A stretch of 64,000 nucleotides of DNA from Mustelus asterias. Taxonomy: Eukaryota. The translations under genes and the position numbers were made by a program. Positions 43,722 to 63,226 of this stretch are shown piece by piece; the stretch's first letter is position 1; each line of letters begins with the position of its first letter. The stretch covers positions 124,001 to 188,000 of the forward strand of contig NW_027590347.1 of the NCBI RefSeq assembly GCF_964213995.1, given 5' to 3'. The notes beneath the pieces were generated by a model. It was not told where the DNA came from. It saw only the letters and a program-made list of their open reading frames with translations, and searched no databases.

Positions 43722-43870
43722 AATGTGGAGATGCCGGCGTTGGACTGGGGTAAACACAGTAAGAGGTTTAACAACACCAGGTTAAAGTCCAACAGGTTTA
43801 TTTGGTAGCAAAAGCCACACAAGCTTTCGAGGCTCTGAGCCCCTTCTTCAGGTGAGTGGGAATTCTGTTC
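43722..43870 (-). mobile_element. Penelope-like element pLTR fragment with hammerhead core
   Basis: Near-identical to the arm of the 45468-46037 element; minus strand reads CACCTGAAGAAGGGGCTCAGAGCCTCGAAAGCTTGTG. Confidence 0.75.
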
Positions 43871-44177
43871 AGAATTTCATTCAAATACTTCTGATGTTTA
43901 AGCAAAATGGTTTGCTGCTCCTGTTTGGTCTTTGAACTTTTCATAACCCTGGAGTTTCTCCTGATCTCATTCAGATTGAGTTTTATTTAATTTCTTTCCA
44001 GCGATGTCAAAACGTATTCATTCTGGACTTTCATTTTGTTTTCTAATATTGAGTCTATCTCTTCACTCACAAACTACTCATTCGAATCATTTGAGGGGGT
44101 TTAAATAATGTTTTTTTAAATAATTTGTCAACTTCCCTGAACTCTGCCGTTGTTATACCTTGTTCTGTCTCAGCAAT

Positions 44178-45467: not shown

Positions 45468-46037
45468 CAGTAAGAAGTTTAACAACACCAGGTTAAAGTC
45501 CAACAGGTTTATTTGGTAGCAAAAGCCACACAAGCTTTCGAGGCTCTGAGCCCCTTCTTCAGGTGAGTGGGAATTCTGTTCACAAACAGAACTTATAAGA
45601 CACAGACTCAATTTACATGAATAATGGTTGGAATGCGAATACTTACAACTAATCCAGTCTTTAAGAAACAAAACAATGGGAGTGGAGAGAGCATCAAGAC
45701 AGGCTAAAAAGATGTGTATTGTCTCCAGCTGTCTTGTCTGGAGACAATACACATCTTTTTAGCCTGTCTTGATGCTCTCTCCACTCCCATTGTTTTGTTT
45801 CTTAAAGACTGGATTAGTTGTAAGTATTCGCATTCCAACCATTATTCATGTAAATTGAGTCTGTGTCTTATAAGTTCTGTTTGTGAACAGAATTCCCACT
45901 CACCTGAAGAAGGGGCTCAGAGCCTCGAAAGCTTGTGTGGCTTTTGCTACCAAATAAACCTGTTGGACTTTAACCTGGTGTTGTTAAACTTCTTACTGTG
46001 TTTACCCCAGTCCAACGCCGGCATCTCCACATCATGA
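45468..46037. mobile_element. Penelope-like element, palindromic (inverted pLTR) insertion with 12-bp TSD
   Basis: About 260-bp inverted repeat (45467-45728 vs 45738-45999) with a 9-nt loop; direct repeat CCTCTATATTTA at 45456-45467 and 46038-46049; hammerhead cores in both arms. Confidence 0.8.
45901..45937 (+). ncRNA. Minimal hammerhead ribozyme motif of Penelope type (mirror copies on the minus strand at about 45530-45566 and 43818-43854)
   Basis: CAC-CTGAAGA-stem II (GGGGCT/AGCCTC)-GAAA-GCTT-GTG; palindromic AAGCTT helix III. Confidence 0.6.
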
Positions 46038-46269
46038 CCTCTATATTTAACCAGCCCGTCTCTGACATCTCCTCCAGTCACACAACCCTGTGAGATGTCT
46101 GCACCGCTCTAATTGTGGCATCGTGAGCGTTCCACATGCAACATGACTTGCATCGATAAACTCTCATCTCCAACATTTCAATTGAAGTTTCAAAGCTCAA
46201 TGGCTTTGAAGCCGAATGGTCCAGATTGCCATGGCCTTCAATGTGAACAAGTTGTTTGTGATGTCACTA

Positions 46270-46750
46270 CAGAGGTTGCCTAGGAAACAATGACTGAACA
46301 CAGGGGGTGAATGTGAGAAGCTGAAGTTTCCACTTGAAGACATTCCCAGTGTCTCTGAGCAGCTGAACTGGGGAAGCCTTTGGGCAGAGACTGTGCTGCT
46401 GCTATTGCCCTTCCTGGCCACCAGGCGTCGCGGTAACGCTCCCGGGGGGGGGCTGCTCCTCCCCAGTGTCACCTCTTGCCCACTCCGGCCCGGCCCCATG
46501 CTCGTTGGCGGGACAACAGGGGGACTTGTCGAGGGGGCGGGGCGGCCTGTGCGCATGTGCGGGACGGGAATGCTCCCAGAAGTCAGCGCGCGCGGACGCC
46601 GCCGCATTGATGCCGTCTCCCCTGGCAACGCAAGATGGTCGCCGCCGCCGTCTCCCTTGGCAATGGAATATGGCCGCTGGCCGTCTCCCTTGGCAACGCA
46701 AGATGGCCGCCGGCGGTGGGTGTCATTGCGGCGCACGCGCAGTGAGTTCT
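46270..46750. promoter_or_regulatory. CpG-island promoter with GC box, NRF1-like, RFX X-box and YY1 motifs
   Basis: High CpG density 46420-46745; GGGGGCGGGGC at about 46533; GCGCATGTGC at about 46551; GTTGCCTAGGAAAC at 46275-46288; three GTCTCCC(C/T)TGGCAA units each followed by AAGATGG/ATATGG; donor GTGAGT at 46742. Confidence 0.75.
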
Positions 46751-46850
46751 GTCTGCAGCCATTGTCCAGGTTGCCCCCAGTGGATGGGGTTGGGATTGTG
46801 CAGCAGATGGAGCAACAATCCCAGTTTCAATAGGGGGACAGAAGCTGCAA

Positions 46851-46868
46851 TGCTGCCCCCTGGTGGTC
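46851..46868 (-). promoter_or_regulatory. CTCF consensus site
   Basis: Minus strand GACCACCAGGGGGCAGCA. Confidence 0.65.
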
Positions 46869-46942
46869 ACTTCTCCCAGTCTCAGCATTGCAGAGTGTTT
46901 AAACAAGAGTGCATTGTCACAGCAGCACCTTGACCTTCAGTT

Positions 46943-47150
46943 TCAGTTTATTTATTAGTGTCAGAAGTAGGCTTACATTAACACTACAATGAAGTTACTG
47001 TGAGAATCCCCTAGTCGCCCACACTCCGGCGCCTGTTCGGGTTACACTGAGGGGGAATTTAGCACGGCCAATGCACCCTAACCAGCACATCTTTCAGACT
47101 GTGGGAGGAAACCGGAGCACCCGGAGGAAACCCACGCAGACACGGGGAGG
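46943..47150 (-). mobile_element. HE1-like SINE, 5'-truncated
   Basis: Same tail and core as 30148-30435. Confidence 0.85.
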
Positions 47151-47369
47151 GGACAGCCCGGGGGAAAGCTCCATTCCAACTGTCCCTGGAGTGTCAGATT
47201 AACCTGGGTCACTCACGCCCCCCCCCGGCTAAGACTCACCTCCCTCAGACAGTGAGACCCTCCTGTATCACTCACCTTACTGTAGTCAGATACCCTCAGA
47301 CTCAGCACTGGGCCCTGGGCGTGTTCTTTAAATGCTGCGACCTATCGTGGAGGAAAGAATTGGGAGGAT

Positions 47370-48005
47370 TTTGATTTGATTTGATTTATTACTGTCGCGT
47401 GTATTGGGATACAGTGAAAAGTATTGTTTCTTGTATGCTGTACAGACAAAACATACCGTTCATAGAGTACATCGGGGAGAAGTAAAAGAGAGGGTGCAGA
47501 ATGTAGTGTTGCAGTCATAGGGAGGGTGTAGAGAAAGATAAATCTAATATGTAGCAGGTCCATTCAAAAGTCTGAGGGCAGCAGGGAAGTTCTTGAGTCG
47601 GTTGGTACGTGATCTCAGACTTTGTATCTTTTTCCTGACGGAAGAAGGTGGAAGAGAGAATGTGTGCATCAGGTCCTTAATTATGCTGGCTGCTTTTCTA
47701 AGGCCGCGGGAAGTGTAGACAGAGTCAATGAATGGGAGGCTAGTCTGCGTGATGGACGGGGCTACATTCACGACCTTTTGTAATTTCTTGCAGTCTTGGA
47801 CAGAGCAGAAACCATACCAAGCCGAGATACAGAAAGGATGCTTTCTATGGTGCATCTGTAGAAGTTGGTGAGAGTCGTAGCTGACATGCCACATTTCCTT
47901 AGCCTCCTGAGAAAGTAGACGTGTTGGTGGGCTTTCTCAATTATAGTGTCGGCATGGGGGGACCAGGACAGGTTGTTGGTGATCTGGACACCTAGAAACT
48001 TGAAG
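47370..48005 (-). mobile_element. Rex1/Babar-like LINE RT C-terminal fragment and 3' UTR
   Basis: FKFLGVQITNNLSWSPHADTIIEKAHQHVYFLRRLRK...LTNFYRCTIESILS; frameshifted; (AAATC)n tail. Confidence 0.8.
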
Positions 48006-48039
48006 TTGAGACCCAAATGACAAGTTGTCATAGTGTCGT

Positions 48040-48365
48040 AGATGTTTACAGCATGGAAACAGGCCCTTTGGCCCAACTTGTCATGCTGCCCTTTTTCTTT
48101 TAACCCCTAAGCTGGTCCCAATTCCCCACATTTGGCCCATATCCCTCTACATCTATCTTACCCATGTAACTGTCTAAATGCTTTTTAAAAGATAAAATTG
48201 TGTCCGTCTCTACTACTACCTCTGGCAGCTTGTTCCAGACGCTCATCGCTCTCTGTGTGAAAAGATTGCCCCTCTGGACACTTTTGTATCTCTCCCCTCT
48301 CACCTTAAACCCATGCCCTCGAGTTTTAGACTCCCCTACCTTTGGGAAAAGATATTGACTATCTA
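48040..48365 (-). mobile_element. CR1 LINE 3' fragment
   Basis: ORF RGERYKSVQRGNLFTQRAMSVWNKLPEVVVE. Confidence 0.85.
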
Positions 48366-49039
48366 TTGTGTGTCAACCATAGAATAGCCACAGAATGAAG
48401 GAGGCCATTCAGCCCATTCAGCTGGTGTCGACTCTCTGCTAGAGCAATCGAGCCAGTCCCACTGCTCCACCTTGTCCCTGGAACCCTGCAAATCTTTTCC
48501 CATCAGCTTGCCATCCCATTTCCCCCGGAAAGACAGCGAGGAGCAGAGAGGAAAGAGGAACTTGGGGAATGGAAGGTTTCATCTGATGTTCTTGTTGGCA
48601 GATGCTCTGTGGCGGATAAAGCTGGCAGCCTCCTCCAGAAAGCAGCACAGAGTGAATGGAAGGGGCAGAATGTGAGTGAGATGAGACACGAGAGAGAGAG
48701 TGAGAGGGGTGAAAGCTTTATGTTTGTCAGCAAAAAGCACAATGGTGGCCCTGTGTCCTTCAGGGAGCAGCCCAGGCCTCGCTCAAAGCCTGCCCTGTCC
48801 TCACACTCACTGGGAGACGGCCATTTCTAACATGTTGTCCATGTTTCTGAGCTGACACTGAGACAAACACAACAACAGCAGCCACTATCCGGACAAGTCC
48901 TCACGGAGAATGAAATGTCCAAAGCCACTTCAAAGGAAGATTGCGCGGCAGGATTTGTCCTCGAGCTGCGGAGGGAGAGATTTGGATGGATGACCAGAAG
49001 CTGGGTCATTGAAGTTGTGTTTTAGCAATGGAGGTCTAG

Positions 49040-49977
49040 AGAACAGAAAAGGCCCTTCGGCCCATTGCATCTGTGCTGGTCAAAGACAAATCACCCAACT
49101 TGGCTCACGGCCTGGTAAGCCTTGGCATTGCAAATGCATAGCTAAGCACTTCTTAAACGTTCTGAGGGTCTCTGCCTCCACCACCCTTTCAGGCAGAGAG
49201 TTCCAGACTCCCACCACCCTCTGGGTGAAAAAGGTTTTCCTCACATCCCCTGTAAACCTCCTGCCCCTTACCCTAAATCTATACTCCCTGGTCATTGATC
49301 CCACCACCAAGGGGAAAGCTTTCTTCCCGTCTACTCTATCGATGTCCCTCATAATCTTATCCATCTCCATCATGTTCCCCCTCAGCCTCCTCTGCTCCAC
49401 AGAAAACAACCCCAGGGTGGAATCTTATCACCGTTCAGGCCGGCAGGATTTTTCCATCCCACTGCAGTGAAAGGAGATTTGGCTGGTCACCAGATTCTCC
49501 GACCTCGCTGAGCGGGAGTGTGGCGTCAACAGGTGGTAAGATCACACCCTCAGTCTATAAAATCTCTCTTCAGTTCGAGTGGCGGCACGGTAGCACAGTG
49601 GTTAGCACTGCTGCCTCACAGCGCCAGGGACCCGGGTTCAATTCCGGCCTCGGATTACTGTCTGTGTGGAGTTTGCACATTCTCCCCGTGTCTGCGTGGG
49701 TTTCCTCCGGGTGCATTGTCCATGCAAAATTGCCCTGAGGGTCCCACGATGTATAGGTTAGGGGGATTAGCGGGAAAATACGTGGGGCTACGGGGTAAGC
49801 CTGGGTAAGTGTCCGTGCAGATTTGAAGGGTCGAATGGCCTCATTCTGGACTGTAGGGATTCTATGATTCTATGAACTAAAACTCTCCAGGCCAGGCAAC
49901 ATCCTGGTGAATCTCCTCTGCACCTTTTCCAGTGCTATCACATCCCTCCTATCCTGTGCATTCCACAACTGCACAAT
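49040..49977 (-). mobile_element. CR1 fragment (49040-49415 and 49880-49977) interrupted by an HE1-like SINE (+, about 49579-49875)
   Basis: ORF FSVEQRRLRGNMMEMDKIMR...FFTQRVVGVWNSLPERVVEA; SINE head at 49579. Confidence 0.8.
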
Positions 49978-49989
49978 GTTTCGATGAGG

Positions 49990-50285
49990 GGCGGCACAGT
50001 GGTTAACACTGCTGCCTCACAGCGCCAGGGACCCGGGTTTGATTCCTGGCTTGGGTCACTGTCAGTGTGGAGTTTGTACATTCTCCCCGTGTCTGTGTGG
50101 GTTTCCCCCGGGTGCTGCGGTTTCCTCCCACAGTTCGAACGACGCGCTGGTTAGGTGTATCAGCCATGCTAAATTCTCCCCAAGTTGCCCAAACAGGCGC
50201 CAGAGCATGGCGACTACGGATTTTCCACAGTAACTTCATTGCAGTGTTAATGTAACCCTACTTGTGACACTAATAAATAAACTTT
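49990..50285 (+). mobile_element. HE1-like SINE
   Basis: tRNA head, core and CAGTAACTTCATTGCAGTG tail. Confidence 0.85.
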
Positions 50286-51475
50286 TAAACCTGATACTCG
50301 ATTCCCCCATGTTGGCCTTGTTCTGTGATCATTAATGCGGATGTTTAGATTATTCAATAAGGACAGCAGACACAGGGAAAAAAAAACATGTGGCTCTGTA
50401 CACAACAGATATATTTCAAGGGGATATTGCAGCCAGCTGTATCTGAGTGGCAGTAATCTTCCCTCAGAATTAGACAGATTGTGGGTTCAGCTCAGAGCCT
50501 CAAATACTAGGCCCTTAGCATCGATCAGAGACTCCGCGCACAGCATGATGGGAGAGCGGACAAAGGAAAGTGGTGTTGAATTTGTGAGCCTTGTTTTGTG
50601 GAAAGCTTTAGTGTTTGGTCAGAATGTTAATTTTTGAGTGGATCTACCATATATTAAGCTGATCTTTCTCTATACCCTATCGGTAACTGCAACACTGTAT
50701 TCTGCACCCTCTCCTCCTGACAGTTTTGTTTTAAACTCTTTATCAATGTCCTTCCAGGTTTAGTGTGAAGGTTTGTGTTCCACACTGAGCCCCTCTCAGT
50801 CTCCACACGGAGCTTGTGTGTGTTGCTGATGCTCCTGTCATTTTGGATGGATACTGTGTGAAGCTGCATTCTCTCCCAGTGAGTTTCTGATCTACTTCAC
50901 TCTCTCTGCGGCTGGAGCAGTGTCCAGCAGGCAGCAGAGGATGGCAGTGTATCACAGTCAGCACAATATAGACAAACAGCCTTTAGCAAGAGAGGCTTTG
51001 ACCCGTTTTCAAACCAAATCCCCAATTTGATGTTTCCAGCTGCGCTGTTTACAATGCTGCTGAATATTGTGTGTCTTTGGTAAACTGGGATGTGTAGCAG
51101 TCACATTAAGTGGTCAATAAATACGTCCACACTGTGTATATCTTTCTGTGTGTGTGTGTGTCAGCGTGCATGTGTGTCAATGTATTTAAATCTCAAAGGA
51201 AAATAGGAGCAGGTGTAGGCCATTTGGCCCATCGATCCTGCGCCAGCATTCAAACGGATCATGGTGCACGTACGCACACAAAAGACGCACACCAACACAC
51301 ACAAAACACGCACACACACAAAGCACGCACACACACAAAGCACGCACACACACAAAGCACGCACACACAAAGCACACACACAAATCACGCGCAAAAAGCA
51401 CACACACAAATCACACACACAAACACAATAAACACACACACACAAACACACAGAAACACACACATCAAACACACA

Positions 51476-51787
51476 GTTAGCACTGCTGCCTCACAGTGCC
51501 AGGGACTCGGGTTCGGTTCCCGGCTTGGGTCACTGTCTGTGCGGAGTTTGCACGTTCTCCCCGTGTCTGCGTGGGTTTCCTCCGGGTGCTCCGGTTTCCT
51601 CCCACAGTCTGAAAGACGTTCTGGTTAGGGTGCATTGGCCGTGCTAAATTGTCCCTCCGCGTCAGGGAGACTAGCTCGGGTAAATGCATGGGGTAATGGG
51701 GATAGGGCCTGGGTGGGATTGTGGTCGGTGCAGACTCAATGGGCCAAATGGCCTCCTTCTGCACTGTAGGAGTCTAGGATTCTATGA
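51476..51787 (+). mobile_element. HE1-like SINE flanked by CA-rich microsatellites
   Basis: Head GTTAGCACTGCTGCCTCACAG, core, GATTCTATGA tail. Confidence 0.85.
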
Positions 51788-51924
51788 AAACACAGAGAAA
51801 CAGATATTCTCACCCAGTAACACTCAGACGCACACAGTAATAAACACACACGGAAACATGTCCACACACACACACACACGCACACACACACAAACACACA
51901 CACACACAGATTCCTATTTTATTT

Positions 51925-52283: not shown

Positions 52284-52785
52284 TGTATCAGTCAACTCTG
52301 CCCGAAACCACTCTCAGTTATTACAATCTGGGCCTGGTATCAGTAATCTCTGCCCGAAACCTCTCTCAGTTATTACAATCTGGGCCTTGTATCAGTGAAC
52401 TCTGCCCGAAACCTCTCTCAGTTATTACAATCTGGGCCTTGTATCAGTAATCTCTGCCCTAAACCTCTTCAAGTTATTACAATCTGGGCCTGGTGTCAGT
52501 AAACACTGCCCTAAACCTCTCTCAGTTATTACAATCTGGGCCTTGTATCAGTAATCTCTGCCCGAAACCTCTCTCAGTTATTACAATCTGGGCCTGGTAT
52601 CAGTAATCTCTGCCCGAAACCTCTCTCAGTTATTACAATTTGGGCCTTGTATCAGTAATCTCTGCCCTAAACCTCTCTCAGTTATTACAATCTGGGCCTG
52701 GTATCAGTAATCTCTGCCCGAAACCTCTCAGTTATTACAATCTGGGACTTGTATCAGTAATCTCTGCCCTAAACCTCTCTCAGTT
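52284..52785 (+). repeat. 52-bp tandem repeat, about 9-10 copies
   Basis: Unit CTCTGCCCGAAACCTCTCTCAGTTATTACAATCTGGGCCTGGTATCAGTAAT. Confidence 0.95.
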
Positions 52786-54920
52786 CCCCTGGATTCCTGC
52801 TCTGTAACATATCACTGTGTAATCTAACAATTAATCCAGTTCCCCTGGATTACTGCTCTGTGACATATCACTGTGTAATCCAACAATTAATCCAGTTCCC
52901 CTGGATTACTGCTCTGTGACATATCACTGTGTAATCTAACAATTAATCCAGTTCTCCTGGATTACTGCTCTGTAACATATCACTGTGTAATCTAACAATT
53001 AATCCAGTTCCCCTGGATTACTGCTCTGTAACATATCACTGTGTAACCTAACAATTAATCCAGTTCCCCTGGATTACTGCTCTGTAACATATCACTGTGT
53101 AATCTAACAATTAATCCAGTTCCCCTGGATTACTGCTCTGTGACATATCACTGTGTAATCTAACAATTAATCCAGTTCCCCTGGATTACTGCTCTGTAAC
53201 ATATCACTGTGTAATCTAACAATTAATCCAGTTCCCCTGGATTACTGCTCTGTAACATATCAGTGTGTAATCTAACAATTAATCCAGTTCCCCTGGATTA
53301 CTGCTCTGTAACATATCACTGTGTAATCCAACAATTAATCCAGTTCCCCTGGATTACTGCTCTGTAACATATCACTGTGTAATCCAACAATTAATCCAGT
53401 TCCCCTGGATTACTGCTCTGTAACATATCACTGTGTAATCTAACAATTAATCCAGTTCCCCTGGATTACTGCTCTGTGACATATCACTGTGTAATCTAAC
53501 AATTAATCCAGTTCCCCTGGATTACTGCTCTGTAACATATCACTGTGTAATCTAACAATTAATCCAGTTCCCCTGGATTACTGCTCTGTGACATATCACT
53601 GTGTAATCTAACAATTAATCCAGTTCCCCTGGATTACTGCTCTGTAACATATCACTGTGTAATCTAACAATTAATCCAGTTCCCCTGGATTACTGCTCTG
53701 TAACATATCACTGTGTAATCTAACAATTAATCCAGTTCCCCTGGATTACTGCTCTGTAACATATCACTGTGTAATCTAACAATTAATCCAGTTCCCCTGG
53801 ATTACTGCTCTGTAACATATCACTGTGTAATCTAACAATTAATCCAGTTCCCCTGGATTACTGCTCTGTAACATATCAGTGTGTAATCTAACAATTAATC
53901 CAGTTCCCCTGGATTACTGCTCTGTAACATATCACTGTGTAATCCAACAATTAATCCAGTTCCCCTGGATTACTGCTCTGTAACATATCACTGTGTAATC
54001 CAACAATTAATCCAGTTCCCCTGGATTACTGCTCTGTAACATATCACTGTGTAATCTAACAATTAATCCAGTTCCCCTGGATTACTGCTCTGTGACATAT
54101 CACTGTGTAATCTAACAATTAATCCAGTTCCCCTGGATTACTGCTCTGTAACATATCACTGTGTAATCTAACAATTAATCCAGTTCCCCTGGATTACTGC
54201 TCTGTGACATATCACTGTGTAATCTAACAATTAATCCAGTTCCCCTGGATTACTGCTCTGTAACATATCACTGTGTAATCTAACAATTAATCCAGTTCCC
54301 CTGGATTACTGCTCTGTAACATATCACTGTGTAATCTAACAATTAATCCAGTTCCCCTGGATTACTGCTCTGTAACATATCACTGTGTAATCTAACAATT
54401 AATCCAGTTCCCCTGGATTACTGCTCTGTAACATATCACTGTGTAATCTAACAATTAATCCAGTTCCCCTGGATTACTGCTCTGTGACATATCACTGTGT
54501 AATCTAACAATTAATCCAGTTCCCCTGGATTACTGCTCTGTAACATATCACTGTGTAATCCAACAATTAATCCAGTTCCCCTGGATTACTGCTCTGTAAC
54601 ATATCACTGTGTAATCTAACAATTAATCCAGTTCCCCTGGATTACTGCTCTGTAACATATCACTGTGTAATCCAACAATTACTCCAGTTCCCCTGGATTA
54701 CTGCTCTGTAACATATCACTGTGTAATCCAACAATTAATCCAGTTCCCCTGGATTACTGCTCTGTAACATATCACTGTGTAATCTAACAATTAATCCAGT
54801 TCCCCTGGATTACTGCTCTGTAACATATCACTGTGTAATCCAACAATTAATCCAGTTCCCCTGGATTACTGCTCTGTAACATATCACTGTGTAATCTAAC
54901 AATTAACCCAGTTCTCCTGG
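52781..54920 (+). repeat. 56-bp tandem satellite, 38 copies
   Basis: Unit CAGTTCCCCTGGATTACTGCTCTGTAACATATCACTGTGTAATCTAACAATTAATC; first and last heptamer positions 52813 and 54885 differ by 37 x 56. Confidence 0.97.
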
Positions 54921-54990
54921 TTTATGTTTCCCTGTATCAATGTGTAATGGAACCCACTCCTGATACCGTGATCACACAAACACGGTGAGG

Positions 54991-55006
54991 GCGCTCCCTC
55001 TGGTGG
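54991..55006 (-). promoter_or_regulatory. CTCF consensus site
   Basis: Minus strand CCACCAGAGGGAGCGC. Confidence 0.6.
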
Positions 55007-55055
55007 TGATCTGAGGTAAATGGCCTCTGCTTGGGAGATCAGTGAATTCTCAGAC

Positions 55056-55178
55056 TACTGGAGGATCTTGTTGCAGGAATACACTGCTGTATTTTTCTTA
55101 GGAATAAGAAAAATACTGTATTTTTCTTAGGAATAAGAAAAATACAGCAGCGTAATCCTGCAACAAGATCCTCCAGTA
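55056..55178. mobile_element. MITE-like palindromic element
   Basis: About 45-bp inverted arms TACTGGAGGATCTTGTTGCAGG... / ...CCTGCAACAAGATCCTCCAGTA with a duplicated central palindrome; TA at both ends. Confidence 0.55.
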
Positions 55179-55184
55179 ATTATA

Positions 55185-55550
55185 AATTGCCCCTCTGGAA
55201 CTTTTGTATCTCTCCCCTCTCACCTTAAACCTATGCCCTCTGCTTTTAGACTTCCTTATCTTTGGGAAAATATATTGACTATCCAGCTGATCTGTGCCCC
55301 TCATTATTTTATCGACCTCTATAACATCACCCCTCAGCCTCCTACGCTCCAGAGAAAAAAGTCCCAGTCTATCCAGCCTCTCCTTATAACTCAAACAATC
55401 AAGTCCCGGTCGCATCCTCGTAAATCTTTTCTGCAGTCCTTCTAATTTAATAACATCCTTTCTATAATAGGGTGACCAGAACTGTACACAGAATTCCAAG
55501 TGTGACCTTACCAATGTCTTGTCCAACTTCAACAAGACGTCCCAACTCCA
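55185..55550 (-). mobile_element. CR1 LINE fragment
   Basis: ORF SWDVLLKLDKTLVRSHLEFCVQFWSPYYRKDVIKLE...LERRRLRGDVIE. Confidence 0.9.
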
Positions 55551-56100
55551 GTGCTTATCTGAAATACGGCTGAAGGGGAAAATTATTAACCAATTTACAA
55601 TGTTTTTGACAGAATACATAAGACACTACAAACAAAGAGTTAAATGATTCTTGAAACAAGGATAATAAGGGAATGAAACAAATACTTTACAAATATGTGG
55701 ATGCAATAAGAGAATTAAATAAATAACTATGCTTATCTTAGAAATCTTAGAAACTCTACAGCACAGAAAGAGGCCATTCGGCCCATCGAGTCTGCACTGA
55801 CCACAATCCCACCCAGGCCCTATCCCCACATCCTTACATATTTAGCCACTAATCCCTCTAACCTACGCATCCCAGGACACTAAGGGCAATTTTTCAGCAT
55901 AGCCTATCAACCTAAGCCGCACATCTTTGGACTGTGGGAGGAAACCCATGCAGACACGAGGAGAATGTGCAAACTCCAGACAGTGACCCTAGCCGGGAAT
56001 CGAACCCAAGTCCCTGGAGCTGTGAAGCAGCAGTGCTAACCACTGTGCTACCGTGCCGCCTTATAAATCATGTATGCTCATATTTTAAATGTAATTTATG
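55551..56100 (+). repeat. Left copy of a ~215-bp direct repeat (right copy 58391-58607), split by an HE1-like SINE (-, about 55735-56060)
   Basis: GTGCT(T/G)ATCTGAAATACGGCTGAAGGGG...AATAACTATG and TATGCTCAT..TTTAATGTAATTTATG are shared by both copies. Confidence 0.85.
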
Positions 56101-56121
56101 CTTACTTTGTTCTAAGTTAAA

Positions 56122-56420
56122 GTTTATTTATTAGTTACATTTAGACTTACATTAACACTGCAATGAAGTAGCTGTGAGAGTCCCCCAGCCACCACACCCT
56201 GGCGCCTGTTCCGGTACACAGCGGATGAATCTGGCAAGGCCAGTGCACCGAACCAGCACGTATTTCGGAATGTGCGAGGAAACCAGAGCACGCGGAGGAA
56301 ACCCACACAGACACGGGGAGAACGTGCAAACTCCGCACAGACAGGGACTCGAGCCTGGAACCGAACCCAGGTCCCTGACGCTGTGAGGTAGCAGTGCTAA
56401 CCCACTGTGCCACCGTGCCA
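56122..56420 (-). mobile_element. HE1-like SINE
   Basis: Reverse-complement head GCAGTGCTAACCCACTGTGCCACCGTGCC, core and tail. Confidence 0.85.
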
Positions 56421-56776
56421 CTTATGGTCAATATGGGAATGTGGGCATCTGCAATTTTAGTCCACCGTCAAAACAGGACATCAACATTGTAAAGAGTTAC
56501 AAGCCTCAGAGGATGGTTAGACACAGGAATTGAATCAGTTGTCAGAGAGTGGTGTTTGTGACAGGGACTGATTGATATGTTCTATGAATTCACTCACGTT
56601 TAATCCAGCAGTGGCTGGAGAACAAGTAGCAATGGCTTTGGAATAATTGAAATCTGGAGGTGGTGAATAGGCAGATCAGGTGGGTTTCAGTCGGGTTTCA
56701 GTCACTGGTTGGATCGGGAATAGCTTTTTATTTGCAGTCCACTCGGTAACGTCTTTCTCCTTTTATTCTCTTCCAG

Positions 56777-57690
56777 CCAACTTGGTGGCGATCATCATCC
56801 TATCCCGTGGACGGTGCGGACTCTCCCAGTGCATCACTTACTACCTGGTGGCGATAGCGGTGACTGATTTCCTTGTCATGGTTACCACTGTTATCCTCAA
56901 CCGGATCGGTGGCGTTTATTTCAGGTACAGTGTCCTATCTACCACCCCCCGGATGAGCTGTCAGCACTGTGCTGGTGTCTGCAACTCGGGATGGTTCAGT
57001 CTGGCTGACAGTGGCTTTCACCTTCGACCGTTATGTGGTGATCTGCTGTCAGGAACTAAAGGCCAGATGCTGCACTGAGAAAACAGCGTTGCTGGTTTTC
57101 GGACTTGTCTGTACTCTAAGCTCCGTGAAGAACATTCCATTCTACTTCACCTATCAGCCCCTGTACATCCTGGACGGGGGGCCCTGGTTCTGTGATATTA
57201 TGTCCAGCTATTACTCTGCCCAGCTGGCAGGCCTATGACTGGCTGGACCATATATTAACGCCCTTTCTCCCATTCCTCCTCATTCTGATTCTCAACGCTC
57301 TGACCGTCAAACACATTCTAGTCGCCAGCAGAACCCGCAGGACGCTTCGGAGCACCGAGAATCACGGGAGATCCAGAGATGGCAAACCGCAGGAGATCCA
57401 TTGTCTTGCTATTTGCCATCTTGCTCAGTTTCCTCCTCCTTTGGGTCACCGAGGTCGGGCATTTCCTCTACGTGCGGCTTACGGCTCAGGCTTACTTCAC
57501 CGGCCTGGATTTCAATGACCCACACTTCATCCTTCAAGGAACTACAAACATGCTCCAGTTACTCAGTTCCTGCAACAGCAATTTTATCAATGCAGTAGCC
57601 CAAACGAAGTTCAGAAATGAGCTGAAGAAGGTTCTGCTTTTGCCCTTCTCCACTTTCACCAGTTGGTTTCGGTTGGACCGGATTTTATGA
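56777..57690 (+). pseudogene. Rhodopsin-class GPCR pseudogene, GPR139/GPR142-like main exon (end of TM1 to TM7)
   Basis: TTCCAG acceptor then NLVAIIILSRGRCGLSQCITYYLVAIAVTD (TM1-2), SVWLTVAFTFDRYVVIC (DRY), LTPFLPFLLILILNALTV (TM5), RRSIVLLFAI..SFLLLW (TM6), LQLLSSCNSNFINAVAQTKFR (TM7). Split over four frames by frameshifts near 56950, 57220 and 57365; no first exon found. Confidence 0.9.
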
Positions 57691-59099
57691 TCCAGATAAT
57701 GACCAGTAATGCTTTGTTGACAGAAGTCAAGTTTGAAACCCTACTTGCTTACTCAGAGGATACCAACACAATGTCTCCCGTTCTTACACAAATAAAATAA
57801 ATGTTGCCATGTAAAGTCAGAAACATAAAGCCATTTACAACACCGATCTCACCCAGCAGCGTTCAGAGTTAACATATGGTGTATGAGGAGTAACGGATGA
57901 AAAGTTATCTGCAAAACAGTACTGCACATTAAATGGCAGATGGGAACAAGGCAGATCCCATGGGATTTCCGTGATTTCAGGTGGATGGTGTCAGAGAGAA
58001 CAGAACAGGGAGAGGGGGTCCCTGGGGGTGATGCTCAGTGAATTCTGGGCATTAATATCAGGGGGAATGGATCTGATCAGGGAGAAATGCATACGATAAA
58101 CAGAAGGCACTGGGAGACGTTTCATGGTTACGACCAGACAGTCAGTGTGTTTCCTGGACAGTGGAGTCTTTTTCTATGTCATGGAGCAGTAAGAGAAAAA
58201 ATCTGTCTTTGTGTGTTTTAACCAATTGTGAAGCTGAAACATCTGTATCAGAAGGCCCCAGCCTCGGAGATTAAGTAGTTAATTGTATCAAATGGGCCCC
58301 AGCTTTTTCAAACTTCTGCGTTTTATTTCCTCTCTGGTCAATCCCAAAGATCCCAATCTAGTCATAATTTGAAAATTTGTAATCGATGATGTGCTGATCT
58401 GAAATACGGCTGAAGGGGAAAATTATTAACCAATTTACAAGGTGTTTGACAGAATACATAAGACACTACAAAGAGTTAAATGATTCTTGAAACAATGATA
58501 ATCAGGGAATGAAACAAATACTTTACAAATATATGGATGCAATAAGAGAATTGAATAAATAACTATGATTATAAAACATATATGCTCATCTTTTAATGTA
58601 ATTTATGTATTGAATGAATTATTGTTCATTTCAACCAAAAGCAAGTCACTGTCAGGTATGATGATAAATCGAAGAGTTGAGAGCCAATGGCCTGGGAACC
58701 TTAGCAGTTGCAGAATTAATATCTGAAAGTTCCTGGCGAGGGAACGCATTTTGCAACTTTATGAATGGGGACATTCAATGTTTAGACATAGAATGGATCG
58801 TACTGGGACTCAGGATCACGTGTCGATCCAGTTTTGGAAATGAGCCGGTGGGAATGTTCATTTTGACCTCCTCACACAGAGGTACCTGCCTCGTGAGTTT
58901 TATATTGTCTGTAGTTAACGACAGTATTGGTCATCTCAAATTATCCCACAACACAATTATCAAAGCGGGAGGACCCACGCACACCGACACTCTCACAAAC
59001 ACACTCACTGCAATCAGTTGCACAGAGCCCGGGTTCCCTCTCCCCTTCTCAATCTCTGACTCACTCCGTTCCCATTCAGTGAGATAGATTCACTCAGAC

Positions 59100-59614
59100 A
59101 TGTTTCTGATCTTCCTGGCGGCGCTCTTGCACAGTAAGTACTGGGGTAACGTACATCAAGCCAGATAAATGCATTAACACACATACATGGTAATATAATT
59201 AACCATCACAAATATCGATGTGAGGGGTGAATGGGGGGGGGGGGGGGTGGGGGCGGGCGCTGCAGAAACGATCGCAGATACAAACATTAACTCTTGATAT
59301 TTCATTCCTCTACCTTCACAGGCGGACTGTGCGCGGATCCAGTCGCACAGTCATCGCTGCCAATAACCGCATCAGAAGGGGATTCAGTGCAGTTGGGTTG
59401 TGAATATACAGACAAGGATATGTACAGCATGCAATGGTATCAGCAGAAACCGACACAACCAGCGACATGGATTATTACCAAAGCATTAACAGTGAAGGAA
59501 GATGAAGTTTCAGGACGGTATCTGGCGGCTTCTGACGCGTCCAAACAGAACGGTTACCTCAACATAAGCGCCCTCAGTGTGGAGGACGGGGCGGTCTATT
59601 ACTGTGCAGTGAGG
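59100..59614 (+). CDS. TRAV: T-cell receptor alpha/delta-type V gene segment V1 (leader exon 59100-59133, V exon 59322-59614)
   Basis: Leader MFLIFLAALLH, GTAAGT..CAG phase-1 intron, V domain with Cys23 (LGC), WYQQ and DGAVYYCAVR, directly followed by a 23-RSS. Confidence 0.93.
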
Positions 59615-59653
59615 CACAGCGTTAGATTAAAGCTAAAACCCCGTACAAAAACC
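59615..59653 (+). other. 23-RSS of V1
   Basis: CACAGCG + 23 nt + ACAAAAACC. Confidence 0.95.
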
Positions 59654-60584
59654 TCAGCGAGTATTTACAGCTCCATTAAGTTTCCTCCTGCGCGAATGGT
59701 TTGACCCGGGTTCACGAAGACAGTCATTTCTATTTAGGGTGGAGCCGACGGGATGATTGGATATCACCTGAAGACTCTGTCAGGAATAAGCCAATAAGCA
59801 GATGGTGTTGTCTAATATTCTCTTAATTCTCGATCCAGTGATCTCAGCTCTTCCTCCCATTGATTCTGTAGATGTGACATCAGACTCGCCTCATCCACTG
59901 CTCTCAGCTTTATCTTGTTCGATATTCTTCAACTTTCGGAGACACAAGTCCCTGGAATCCAGGAGCAGCAGCAGCGATGCGGATCTCCGTTCTCGCTGTT
60001 TTCTGGGTGACATTCATTGTTTAAAACTTGAAAAAGAGTAAAAAGAAGTTTCATTTATGGAAGAATAAGTTTGAAAAGCAGGCCTTTCATGTTAAACAAG
60101 TATTAGACCTGCCTTAGAGCACAAATGAATCTTTGTTTGTGGCTTTGGTCTTTTGGAGAACAGATTCTAAAAGCGCACAGCAAAGGCGATTTAAAGAGTT
60201 GGTCCCAGGGTTGGAAGATGAGAGCTATCAGAAAGCATGATAAAAATTGTGATTACTCTCTCTCTGGACGAGAAGACAACCAGGTAATCTGACTGATTTC
60301 TGGACAATGATGATCAAATCAATTTAAATAATAATAAATCAAATCAAAGAGATTTAGTGTGTTTGACACCAACTGCTCCTTTCTATCGACAGAGCGTTAA
60401 AGAGGAGTGAAAATGAGAAAGAGAAACACTGATGTTGCGGGCATCTGTCGACAGAGGCCCAGCAATGTGCATTGCAATAGCAGTGGAATAGGCTGGCAAA
60501 TTGTCCTCTCGATTCGCACTTGGTGAAAACTTTAAGCGGAATGTCCTTCAGCAAAGCAATCATCGGCATTGACAAAGAAAAGCA

Positions 60585-60656
60585 AGGTCCTGCGGAGATT
60601 TGAACTCAGATCGCTGGGTTCAAAGTCAAGAGTAATACCCATTACACCACAGAACC
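60585..60656 (-). tRNA. tRNA-Gln(TTG), probable pseudogene
   Basis: GGTTCTGTGGTGTAATGGGTATTACTCTTGACTTTGAACCCAGCGATCTGAGTTCAAATCTCCGCAGGACCT; acceptor stem pairs, two mismatches in the anticodon stem and one in the T stem; TTTT terminator just downstream. Confidence 0.85.
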
Positions 60657-60857
60657 CAGAAAATCGCAAACAGATGCAAATGACTTATGAAACACGACTA
60701 CTTCTGCTGATATCTCCCGGTACGGCTTGCGAAGGAAATGATTTGCTATAGATTTGGAGGGCTGTGTTGTTCACTGGATTTACTACAATAAAGTTTATAA
60801 AATGTCTATCTCTTTGATGAAGCACAGGCGACAAACTGTCAGGACTGCTCCTCTATC

Positions 60858-60896
60858 GGTTTTTGTACGACTCGTATTGATCTTTACAACACTGTG
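60858..60896 (-). other. 23-RSS of V2
   Basis: Minus strand CACAGTG + 23 nt + ACAAAAACC (perfect consensus). Confidence 0.97.
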
Positions 60897-61415
60897 CCTC
60901 CACTGCACAGAAATAGGTAGCAGTGTCTGTCACCCGAGTGTCGCCGACACTCAGAGCGCTTCGTTTCTCTGCAACAATGTTCCGAGCCCTGATCCTGCCC
61001 TGATCGCTGGTACCGCTCACCAGGTGCTGCACGGTTCGGTCCGGGTATTGTCTGTACCATTGTAGGACCCGTCCAGCTACTGTAGTGGAACAGTTCAACG
61101 ATGCCAGGTCTCCCTCGGTAACCACCACAGACTCTGGGGACTGTGATACCTCTTCACTACCAGCGGCATCTGGGAAGGATATGTAGATATGCAACAACAT
61201 CATAAAATTAAAATCTCATACTGCAATACAATGTTGCACAATAAAGTACAATTGGACGCATAATACAAGATAACACAACAAAACAGAATACTATTTAACA
61301 GAACATAGCATCGCTAATGTGTGAAATATCGCTGTCAGAAATAGCGACCACACTTACACTGAGGGAAGAGTAAGAAATCCAGGGAGATGATCACTGAAGC
61401 GAAGCTGAGCTTCAT
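60897..61415 (-). CDS. TRAV: T-cell receptor alpha/delta-type V gene segment V2 (leader exon 61415-61358, V exon 61169-60897)
   Basis: Leader MKLSFASVIISLDFLLFPQ, GTAAGT..CAG phase-1 intron, VSQSPESVVVTEGDLASLNC, WYRQ, DTATYFCAVE, 23-RSS. Confidence 0.93.
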
Positions 61416-61655: not shown

Positions 61656-61697
61656 GCAACAGGCATTGTTTCCCCTTGTGTTTCAAGGGGACTTAAA

Positions 61698-62640
61698 ACT
61701 TGAGACGGCGCAGGCGTGCGGTGGGATCCCGCCCGAGCGTTCCCCTGTTCGGGCGGAATTCCACATTGGCCCAAAGCCTCAGCTCCCTCCCCTGGGTGAG
61801 GGACCCCACAGCCTGAGCCGCCTCGCGGAAATGCCCTCCGTGCCTTTTTCTACCGCGCGGAGGCGTTTCCTGTGCGGGCTGCTGCTGCACACCCTCCACT
61901 ACTGCCTCCTCGCCTGTCGCCCGGACACACCTTGGCGGGCCTTGTTGCCGCCGGGCGGCGGAGGTCCCCGCTGGAGGTCCCTCTACGGAGGGATCTCCCC
62001 CAATTACGTCGGGGACCTGGGGTGGAGGGTGACGCATGCAGCAGTTCCGCACAACCGTAGGATTCACTGGTTCACGGGCTCCGAAGACTGCCCTTTCTGT
62101 GGCCTTGTGGAGTCCGTGGACCATGTCTATGTTGTGTGTCTTAGGCTGCACTCCCTTTGTGTTTTCCTGAAGAACCTTTTATTGATGTTTTGTTTGCACT
62201 TCAGTCCCACGCTCCTGATCTACGGACACCCGGTGCGGAGAGGGGGAGGGTCGGGATGGCGACCTCCTCGTGAACCTGCTCCTGGGCCTGGCGAAACGCG
62301 CCATTTACCGGTCCAGGCAGCGGGCGATCGAGGGGGCCGTCCATCCTGACTGTCTGCCCCTCTACCGCGGCTACGTTCGCGGCCAGGTGTCCCTGGAGAG
62401 GGAGCATGCGGTGTCCACGGGCGAGGTTGACGCTTTCCGCGCCCGCTGGGCACCGCAGGGGTTGGGGTGCATTATTGACCCTAATAACTACATTTTAATT
62501 TGATGTTTTTAAGTTTCCTTTGCATTTTGATTTCTGTTCGGGCTGTTCCCCCTCCTTTTTGGGGAGCTGCCCCTTTTACTTTGTCCTGATTTAATTTGAG
62601 TTTGTTTACTTGGTTTGACCTAAAAAGAAAAAAAAAAAAA
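61698..62640 (+). mobile_element. 5'-truncated L1/Tx1-clade non-LTR retrotransposon (ORF2 C-terminal zinc knuckle, 3' UTR, poly-A)
   Basis: WRSLY..DLGWRV.H..CPFCGLVESVDHVYVVC..LLLGLAKRAIY; one frameshift near 62250; A-tail 62622-62640; TSD (AA)GGGGACTTAAA at 61685-61697 and 62639-62651. Confidence 0.88.
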
Positions 62641-62751: not shown

Positions 62752-62790
62752 GGTTTTTGTACGGGCTGACTGTGTCTCTGTAGCAGTGTG
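62752..62790 (-). other. 23-RSS of V3
   Basis: Minus strand CACACTG + 23 nt + ACAAAAACC. Confidence 0.93.
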
Positions 62791-63226
62791 GGGCTCAGCG
62801 CACAGTGATACACGGCAGAGTCAGAGACATGGACCCCGGTGATTGTTAAAGGAACTGTTCTCTTGTCTTTGTCTAATTCAGCCGAAAACCGGTCAGGGAA
62901 ATCTGGAGACTTTTCCCCCTGTCCCTTGCCGTATTTCTTCAGTAAATATCTCGGAGCGTCCCCGGGATGTTGAATGTACCAGAAGAGAGTCTCGCCAGTG
63001 TATTTTGTTGTGTAGTTGCAGTTCAATATTACCGTCTGCCCTTCCTGGACCGTGAATTCGGGCAGGTCCTGGGAAACTGAATCTTGGCCACTGGTTCCTG
63101 TAACAACATATAGAATGTGTGAGAAATCTGAGTGAATATAACCCATGAAACACACACTGAGGATTTGAGCTCAGACTCACCGGGCAGCATGACCATTATT
63201 ATCAGTAAAGCACACAGGGAACACAT
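62791..63226 (-). CDS. TRAV: T-cell receptor alpha/delta-type V gene segment V3 (leader exon 63226-63181, V exon 63097-62791)
   Basis: Leader MCSLCALLIIMVMLP, GTGAGT..CAG phase-1 intron, QDSVSQ..VILNCNY, LFWYIQHPG, DSAVYHCALS, 23-RSS. Confidence 0.93.

What the first reader, a model, noticed from the sequence alone, without database searches (positions are those of the whole stretch)
52781..54920. Satellite forming an array of 38 cryptic 12-RSS-like signals beside 23-RSS TCR V genes
Seen: each 56-bp unit reads GATTACTGC + 12 nt (TCTGT[A/G]ACATAT) + CACTGTG. On the minus strand this is a perfect heptamer CACAGTG, an exact 12-nt spacer and GCAGTAATC, which matches the nonamer ACAAAAACC at 5 of 9 positions, including the A6 and A7 positions. 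Two units carry CAGTGTG, the same heptamer variant V3 uses. The array lies 4.7-10 kb from three 23-RSS V genes. Known: RAG follows the 12/23 rule, TRAJ segments have this nonamer-12-heptamer layout, and cryptic RSSs or deleting elements can be used. Inference: the array could act as a RAG sink, a scanning boundary or a V-deleting/inverting element (deletion with V1, inversion with V2/V3). Caveat: the unit also resembles my recollection of a shark tRNA-SINE head (AGTGGTAATGTCACTGGACTAGTAATCCAG), so the match may be incidental.
Basis: partly seen in the sequence, partly recalled or inferred. Interest (0 to 1): 0.7.

Follow-up and report, generated by a model that had tools for sequence, protein, structure and literature searches.

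The report
Passenger minisatellite with cryptic V(D)J signal
A 56-base repeat beside three T-cell-receptor gene segments carries a fair look-alike of the signal cut by the immune-gene shuffling enzyme, but most of its arrays lie away from such segments and its older copies have let the signal decay, so it is likely a passenger repeat and not a control element.

Summary
In detail: 38 units of 56 bp, 36 with a perfect heptamer, a 12-nt spacer, a 5/9 nonamer, 4.7-10 kb from three V segments with 23-RSS. The RSS likeness is above background. It scores 10.8 bits on a matrix from 39 TRAJ 12-RSS of this genome (real median 20.4; 52 of 50,000 shuffled units reach it), so rare off-target cutting is plausible. 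A function is not supported. The unit has about 3,900 copies; of 65 arrays sharing one junction, only 16 had a V or 23-RSS in the 10 kb fetched. The family descends from a short cassette about 1 kb upstream of a V gene. In those old V-linked copies the heptamer decayed as fast as the rest (25% vs 17-18%); 37 of 38 keep at most one perfect heptamer. No array edge lies at the cut site and no signal joint is in the assembly. The window's array sits at a junction of two duplicated blocks. Precedent: cryptic RSS in mouse gamma-satellite (PMC2193808). This scan noted the same repeat twice before on other pieces of this genome.

The parts
52779..54907 (-). 56-bp minisatellite, 38 units; each reads heptamer-12-weak nonamer on the minus strand and holds an 8-bp inverted repeat (TAATCCAG / CTGGATTA)
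   Evidence: hairpin z about -2.4 when cut in register
54908..54948 (-). decayed terminal unit, heptamer lost; marks the old right end of the cassette
54949..55100 (.). ancestral right flank of the cassette, shared with arrays on C71 and C87 (84-86%) and with the old short copies
54993..55006 (-). CTCF-like motif about 100 bp from the last heptamer (consensus recalled, binding untested)
   Evidence: altered at one core base in the C71 15.8/16.0 Mb and C87 copies
52284..52785 (.). unrelated 52-bp minisatellite, 9.7 units, no CAC on either strand; fused to the 56-bp array through a 5-bp shared word at 52781-52785, replacing the usual LINE junction
46038..51908 (.). left duplicated block, in pieces 90-97% identical to contigs C2927, C3169 and C3646, which have no V gene
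54926..58954 (.). right duplicated block, 97-99% identical to flanks of other arrays in V-gene blocks; holds a frameshifted rhodopsin-type GPCR remnant at about 56761-57690
59321..59653 (+). V1 exon, open, with 23-RSS CACAGCG / ACAAAAACC at 59615; divergent to the array signal
60858..61179 (-). V2 exon, open, with consensus 23-RSS at 60896; same orientation as the array signal; 9 other copies at 96-99% protein identity on other contigs
62752..63098 (-). V3 exon, open, with 23-RSS CACACTG / ACAAAAACC at 62790; same orientation as the array signal

Best explanation
The array is one of at least 78 arrays of a young 56-bp minisatellite that likely grew out of a short repeat cassette lying upstream of a T-cell-receptor V gene and was likely spread by segmental duplication, so its RSS-like unit is likely an accident that RAG would cut only rarely and to no purpose. 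Shown: copy number, dispersal, the old short copies beside V genes, decay of their heptamers, mosaic flanks. Inferred: a LINE fragment, 4.5-5.5 units and a fixed right flank formed one cassette in the V region; one unit with an intact heptamer was amplified and homogenised by slippage or unequal exchange; duplicated blocks carried arrays both among V genes and into V-less, repeat-rich regions, some with zinc-finger genes; this window's array was fused to a 52-bp array by microhomology repair or ectopic exchange, not by RAG. Untested: any cutting by shark RAG.
For: About 3,900 units (3,881 matches of an 18-mer with up to 1 mismatch, control 16); 1,528 exact 28-mers, none on C1-C37. Of 66 arrays with one LINE junction, 65 were fetched and 16 had a V or 23-RSS in the 10 kb. 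Eight V-less loci widened to 28-40 kb still had none. Twelve arrays lie on 11 contigs (C38-C67, 10.7 Mb) with no perfect 12- or 22/23-RSS. Old copies: 38 examined, 3.5-5.5 units, most about 1 kb upstream of a V exon; 14 have no perfect heptamer, 23 have one, 1 has two. In four relic lineages differences from the young unit are 38/154 in the heptamer, 24/178 nonamer, 44/264 spacer, 95/520 linker. In 1,514 young units the heptamer (median 1.3% variant) is no more fixed than the linker (1.0%), and nonamer position 5 is the most variable site (42%). No array edge starts at the heptamer in 79 loci. There are 0 exact signal-joint matches; the 5 of 6 near matches inspected were point variants inside arrays. 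No array in 190 kb spanning two TRAJ clusters. T at nonamer position 5 occurs in 0 of 39 TRAJ signals.
Against: The signal is better than a single random draw (52 of 50,000) and outscores 3 of 39 real TRAJ signals. The nonamer is the least diverged part in the relics (13.5% vs 17-18%; heptamer plus nonamer against the rest p=0.73). V-linked arrays are richer in the T5 variant (279 of 306 units vs 543 of 1,233). T5 is the letter a mouse screen finds compatible with RAG1 binding, while G5 is not, although T5 is also the common state in the old copies. At least about 25 of 78 arrays are tied to V blocks, and four lie on C71, the antigen-receptor chromosome. A 10-kb stretch can miss a V: this window's own V1 is 4.4 kb from the array. 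A CTCF-like motif adjoins the array. An assembly cannot show somatic cutting.
Confidence: 0.8

Rival explanations
1. Evolved RAG decoy or V-deleting/inverting element: the expanded arrays were kept beside V genes because RAG pairs their 12-type signals with V 23-RSS, deleting V1 or inverting V2/V3, or because they soak up RAG.
For: Perfect heptamer, exact 12 spacer, AT spacer start and RWRW nonamer core; above-background score; the family arose in the V region; the 'safe site' idea was proposed for mouse gamma-satellite.
Against: Most arrays are not near V genes. Old V-linked copies lose the heptamer. Array size beside V genes runs from 4 to about 70 units. Orientation is mixed: 2 convergent, 7 divergent, 11 same, not independent (window rows corrected by hand). 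Mouse off-target joining favours convergent CAC near a recombination centre, and no J was found in C315:104-228 kb. The nonamer is not in the published top-1000 table.
Confidence: 0.05
2. Scanning boundary: the cassette slows loop extrusion through its CTCF-like right flank, and the adjacent heptamers get exposed to RAG as a side effect. The working part would be the flank, not the repeat.
For: CTCF-like motif at 54993-55006, present in the old copies and in the V-block arrays; CTCF elements bound RAG tracking in mouse Tcra/d.
Against: The consensus is recalled and binding untested. The motif is not visibly better conserved than the rest of the flank and is altered in three copies. A closer match lies at 46853-46866, in the block shared with V-less contigs.
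Confidence: 0.07
3. SINE-derived satellite: the monomer comes from the tRNA-like head of an abundant SINE, and the heptamer is the remnant of its A box. This concerns origin only and is compatible with the best explanation.
For: A gapped pattern built from the unit matched 2,544 places, control 0, and its first 100 listed are dispersed SINE-head copies on C1-C3. About 30 nt align to those heads. Against a profile from 30 copies chosen by a different motif, 69 of 20,000 shuffles reach the score. SINE-derived satellites are known in reptiles.
Against: p 0.003-0.014 is unadjusted and the pattern was chosen with the SINE in mind. The independent profile matches the opposite strand best, largely through the TAATCCAG word that the unit's inverted repeat places on both strands. 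No SINE body was seen at the ends of the old copies. No tRNA call and no Rfam hit near a gathering score.
Confidence: 0.3
4. The monomer is a decayed true RSS, related to the 61-bp tandem 23-RSS stacks found behind some V genes in this genome.
For: Short blocks in the same order are visible by eye.
Against: Not significant: 81-693 of 3,000 shuffles in local alignments, 1,264 of 5,000 in global alignment. No V or J coding flank precedes the heptamer in the old copies.
Confidence: 0.03

Closest known systems
Cryptic RSS in mouse gamma-satellite (Cowell et al. 2003, PMC2193808; passages read)
   Same: A tandem repeat whose unit holds an RSS look-alike. Two of three tested sites recombined on plasmids, breaks rose with RAG induction, and a 'safe site' role was suggested.
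   Different: That repeat is 234 bp, about 6% of the genome, with 23-type sites and experimental proof. This one is 56 bp, about 0.2 Mb, 12-type, partly inside antigen-receptor V blocks, and untested.
RAG off-target CAC sites in the mouse Tcra/Tcrd loop domain (PMC4995090 passages; bioRxiv 10.64898/2026.09.01.748595 abstract)
   Same: Low-frequency, non-productive joins to cryptic sites inside TCR loci; this is the most that the array is likely to do.
   Different: Those were measured, favour convergent sites and start from a D/J recombination centre. None of this array's three V partners is convergent, and the contig is not linked to a J cluster.
Kappa-deleting element / RS (PMC2188845, start of abstract in a search listing only; the rest recalled)
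   Different: It sits at a fixed place in its locus with documented frequent rearrangement. This unit is a dispersed repeat with variable position, orientation and copy number and no known junction.
SINE-derived satellites of squamates (PMC10702118, abstract) and shark tRNA-head SINEs such as SacSINE1 (PMC5499810 passages; the name for the element found here is recalled, not checked by sequence)
   Same: Short tandem units, multi-locus, modest copy number.
   Different: Descent from the SINE is only weakly supported here.

Membership tests
Physiological 12-RSS (TRAJ type) | CAC-starting heptamer near consensus | tested here: met
   36 of 38 CACAGTG, 2 CACACTG
Physiological 12-RSS (TRAJ type) | 12-nt spacer | tested here: met
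   best register shared with a 22-nt register, both 5/9
Physiological 12-RSS (TRAJ type) | nonamer within the range of real signals | tested here: not met
   38 of 39 unique TRAJ nonamers match at 6-9 places and the other, likely misregistered, at 4; T5 0/39, G4 2/39, T8 1/39
Physiological 12-RSS (TRAJ type) | flanks a J or D coding segment | tested here: not met
   the flank is the next repeat unit; no J in C315:104-228 kb
Cryptic RSS | score above genomic background | tested here: met
   10.8 bits; 16 of 8,970 background CAC sites and 2 of 95 perfect-heptamer sites reach it. A matrix from this genome was used; RIC12 itself was not available
Cryptic RSS | cleaved or joined by RAG | not testable with these tools
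   no signal joint in the assembly; no lymphoid reads available
Deleting element (Kde/RS type) | fixed position and orientation in one locus | tested here: not met
   at least 78 arrays, mixed orientation, most without a V nearby
Deleting element (Kde/RS type) | signal conserved against its surroundings | tested here: not met
   heptamer 24.7% diverged vs 17-18% in old copies
Deleting element (Kde/RS type) | frequent rearrangement in lymphocytes | not testable with these tools
   needs thymus or spleen DNA
Multi-locus minisatellite | head-to-tail units of 10-100 bp, variable copy number, many loci, variant units interspersed | tested here: met
   period 56, from 4 to at least 117 units per array, 78 arrays seen
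SINE-derived satellite | monomer homologous to a SINE segment | tested here: inconclusive
   p 0.003-0.014 unadjusted, strand ambiguous

The most novel reading that the evidence does not exclude
Recently expanded arrays of 12-type cryptic signals inside a hugely duplicated shark TCR V region act as a tunable RAG decoy or V-deleting element, so that minisatellite length shapes the T-cell repertoire and prunes surplus V copies.
Probability: 0.05. Interest if true: 0.7.

Novelty: new member of a known kind. Interest (0 to 1): 0.18.

Why it matters
As a passenger it matters little. It is a second example, after mouse gamma-satellite, of a tandem repeat with an RSS look-alike, and a marker of block shuffling in a repeat-rich antigen-receptor region. 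It would matter if shark RAG cut it: about 3,900 near-identical cryptic signals, many outside receptor loci, would be a ready route to deletions and translocations in lymphocytes and a natural test of the 'safe site' idea. The old short copies give a built-in control for selection, and that control is negative.

Tried and rejected
RIC12 could not be run; a matrix from 39 unique TRAJ 12-RSS (67 J segments, C71 and C546) replaced it. The register was picked by best consensus match, and five weak Js were kept in. Relation to the 61-bp 23-RSS stacks: not significant. Local search for SINE heads in the first 40 loci showed none in the part of the output that was visible; the output was cut. Rfam: only weak hits in the 52-bp array, far below gathering score. 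ARAGORN: no tRNA in 29 loci. The first junction-phase script overshot array ends (junction part discarded) and was redone. One search mislabelled V2 and V3 because a relic copy beyond the window widened the 'array'; corrected by hand. PDB search only confirmed an Ig V fold. Sequencing runs: no RNA holder listed. Contigs of four runs laid on V1 showed no loose end at the RSS among the 20 of 47 rows shown; contigs drop rare joints, so this says nothing either way. Sequence look-up of earlier findings returned nothing. Assembly artefact rejected: variant units, many contigs, many distinct flanks.

Full report
Observation. The array is as described: 38 units of 56 bp from 52779 to 54907 plus a decayed partial unit. 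On the minus strand 35 units read CACAGTG, 12 nt, GCAGTAATC; two have CACACTG and one has GCAGGAATC. It abuts a different 52-bp array at 52284-52785. Three open V exons (Pfam V-set) have 23-RSS with perfect nonamers at 59615 (+), 60896 (-) and 62790 (-), 4.7-10.0 kb away. V1 is divergent to the array signal and V2/V3 are in the same orientation; none is convergent. The organism looks like a shark. This is inferred from the repeats and the receptor layout, partly from recall, and was not tested.

How RSS-like is it? I located real TRAJ clusters at C71:18.37-18.42 Mb and C546:120-160 kb and built a matrix from 39 unique 12-RSS. The unit scores 10.8 bits against a leave-one-out median of 20.4; 3 of 39 real signals score lower. 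In background DNA 16 of 8,970 CAC sites and 2 of 95 perfect-heptamer sites reach it, and 6 other sites in window 40-64 kb do. Of 50,000 shuffled units 52 reach it. Of 28 tandem families in 1.5 Mb of fetched DNA, 3 do, one of them a true RSS stack. The nonamer has letters rare or absent in TRAJ signals (T5 0/39, T8 1/39, G4 2/39). Mammalian data are kinder. A mouse screen found functional non-canonical nonamers of type NNNRWRWCT, and GCAGTAATC fits RWRW but not CT (PMC12711392, abstract and Results parts 1-2 of 3 read). It is absent from that paper's supplement, which holds the top-1000 table. A spacer starting AT is among the best (PMC9723617, passages). So it is a credible weak cryptic 12-RSS, not background, and not a physiological signal. 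RIC12 itself was not available.

Where else is it? The window is C315:124001-188000 of a 3.68-Gb assembly. There are 1,528 exact 28-mers, the first on C38, and 3,881 matches of an 18-mer with one mismatch allowed. Sixty-six arrays share one junction to a LINE reverse-transcriptase fragment. I fetched 10 kb around 65 of them and 16 had a V exon or 23-RSS. Over all 78 distinct arrays fetched (not a random sample), 18 had one in the stretch, and about 7 more are tied to V blocks by adjacent stretches, shared flanks. Eight V-less loci widened to 28-40 kb had no V and no RSS. Twelve arrays lie on 11 contigs (C38-C67, 10.7 Mb) without a perfect 12- or 22/23-RSS (imperfect signals would be missed). 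C2H2 zinc-finger linkers occur at 10 fetched stretches. C71 carries RSS from 5 to 19 Mb, in line with the linked IgH-TCR alpha/delta complex of elasmobranchs (PMC12227049, passages). It has four arrays among those listed, one 12 kb from a V. No array lies in the J clusters. Small shark chromosomes are rich in tandem repeats (PMC10620051, passages).

Origin. About 9 kb beyond the window's right end lies a short decayed copy with the same LINE junction and the same right flank. A search with it gave 41 scored matches of 723 candidates. In 38 such copies the cassette has 3.5-5.5 units, and in most it sits about 1 kb upstream of a V exon. In five it lies about 260 bp behind a V2-type RSS, convergent to it. 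The link to V genes is therefore historical: the cassette is part of a V-gene module that was duplicated many times. These copies are the control for selection. Fourteen have no perfect heptamer, 23 have one and 1 has two. In four lineages (two of them close) the heptamer differs from the young unit at 38/154 places, spacer 44/264, nonamer 24/178, linker 95/520; heptamer plus nonamer against the rest gives p=0.73. In 1,514 young units the heptamer is no more fixed than the linker and nonamer position 5 varies in 42%. V-linked arrays are mostly T5 (279/306) and V-less ones mixed (543 T, 496 G, 193 A of 1,233). The shark matrix ranks T5 lowest, the mouse code prefers T5 to G5, and T5 is common in the old copies, so lineage history explains the split without selection.

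This copy. The left flank (46038-51908) matches V-less contigs C2927, C3169 and C3646 at 90-97%. The right flank (54926-58954) matches V-block duplicates at 97-99%. The usual LINE junction is gone and the 56-bp array is fused to the 52-bp array at a shared 5-bp word, 11 nt past the nonamer. This points to microhomology repair or ectopic exchange between blocks (inferred). No array edge in 79 loci starts at the heptamer. A heptamer-to-CAC joint pattern has no exact match, and 5 of its 6 one-mismatch hits were inspected and are point variants inside arrays. Orientation to 20 nearby 23-RSS is 2 convergent, 7 divergent and 11 same (corrected). Mouse off-target joins go mostly to convergent CAC within a loop domain that holds a recombination centre, about 1% of junctions (PMC4995090, passages). 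No J was found in C315:104-228 kb.

SINE and RSS ancestry. Against 30 copies chosen by the body motif the unit scores p 0.003-0.014 unadjusted, best on the opposite strand. Descent is possible but unproven. A link to 61-bp tandem 23-RSS stacks was tested and rejected.

Comparison with what is known. It works, at most, like the cryptic RSS of mouse gamma-satellite, where plasmid recombination, RAG-dependent breaks and a 'safe site' idea were already reported (PMC2193808, passages; lead taken from earlier findings). Low-level cryptic joins are widespread in mouse TCR loci and poorly predicted by RSS likeness (bioRxiv 10.64898/2026.09.01.748595, abstract). It fails membership as a physiological RSS and as a deleting element. 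Searches found no paper on this shark repeat (listings only; subscription papers and bioRxiv supplements were not searched). Two earlier notes of this scan describe the same repeat on other pieces and reach a similar verdict.

Verdict. A real array and a real but weak signal, most likely a passenger (0.8). Rare purposeless cutting is compatible with that reading, and I put it at roughly 0.35 by judgement. An evolved decoy or deleting role gets 0.05. Interest 0.18.

Noticed in passing
L193:3686-3940 (C106), L194:3720-4002 (C87), L195:3726-3920 (C71 12.23 Mb), L196:3240-3400 (C71 7.09 Mb), L204:7976-8276: True tandem stacks of 23-RSS with a 61-bp period (2-5 signals) directly behind one kind of V exon; a far better 'RSS satellite' than this finding. 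Already noted by the scan.
   Followed up: partly
G000 C71:18.37-18.42 Mb and C546:120-160 kb: Two TRAJ clusters with related but different J sets, suggesting a duplicated TCR-alpha J region or a divergent haplotype.
   Followed up: partly
window 60898-61179 and many unplaced contigs: V2 has 9 other copies at 96-99% and 7 at 89-93% protein identity; the V search had 1,213 candidates. The TCR V region is heavily duplicated in mixed orientation.
   Followed up: partly
L215, L217, L219, L221, L222 (C1620, C3978, C1085, C627, C387): In five V2 copies the old cassette lies about 260 bp behind the V 23-RSS with its one intact heptamer convergent to it; the best place to test V-to-repeat deletion.
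   Followed up: partly
window 54993-55006 (-) and 46853-46866 (-): CTCF-like motifs (consensus recalled); the second is a full match.
   Followed up: partly
window 56761-57690: Frameshifted single-exon rhodopsin-type GPCR remnant, duplicated with the V block at 99%.
   Followed up: partly
window 61696-62628: Piece of a young non-LTR retrotransposon between V2 and V3, 98% identical to copies near other arrays; a long open frame with endonuclease and RT domains of apparently the same family lies at L138:5870-9781.
   Followed up: partly
window 1329-28049: Many arrays of a 69-bp minisatellite interleaved with GA/GT repeats fill the first 30 kb; its best RSS-like site scores low.
   Followed up: partly
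window 43729-43880, 45471-45730 and 45730-46030; 55040-55180: Repeated element with a long inverted pair around 45730, and a smaller inverted repeat enclosing a 29-bp duplication just right of the array (seen).
   Followed up: no
window 60580-60660 (-): tRNA-like remnant between V1 and V2, seen by eye.
   Followed up: no
G000 C8:50.17-51.08 Mb: Nineteen identical perfect 12-RSS in both orientations, with a 23-RSS about 1.1 kb from the one examined; looks like a field of Ig light-chain miniclusters.
   Followed up: no
L205:4196-4250 (C71 5.108 Mb): D-like segment flanked by a 12-RSS and a 22-spacer RSS; the same 22-spacer signal recurs along C71 and unplaced contigs.
   Followed up: no
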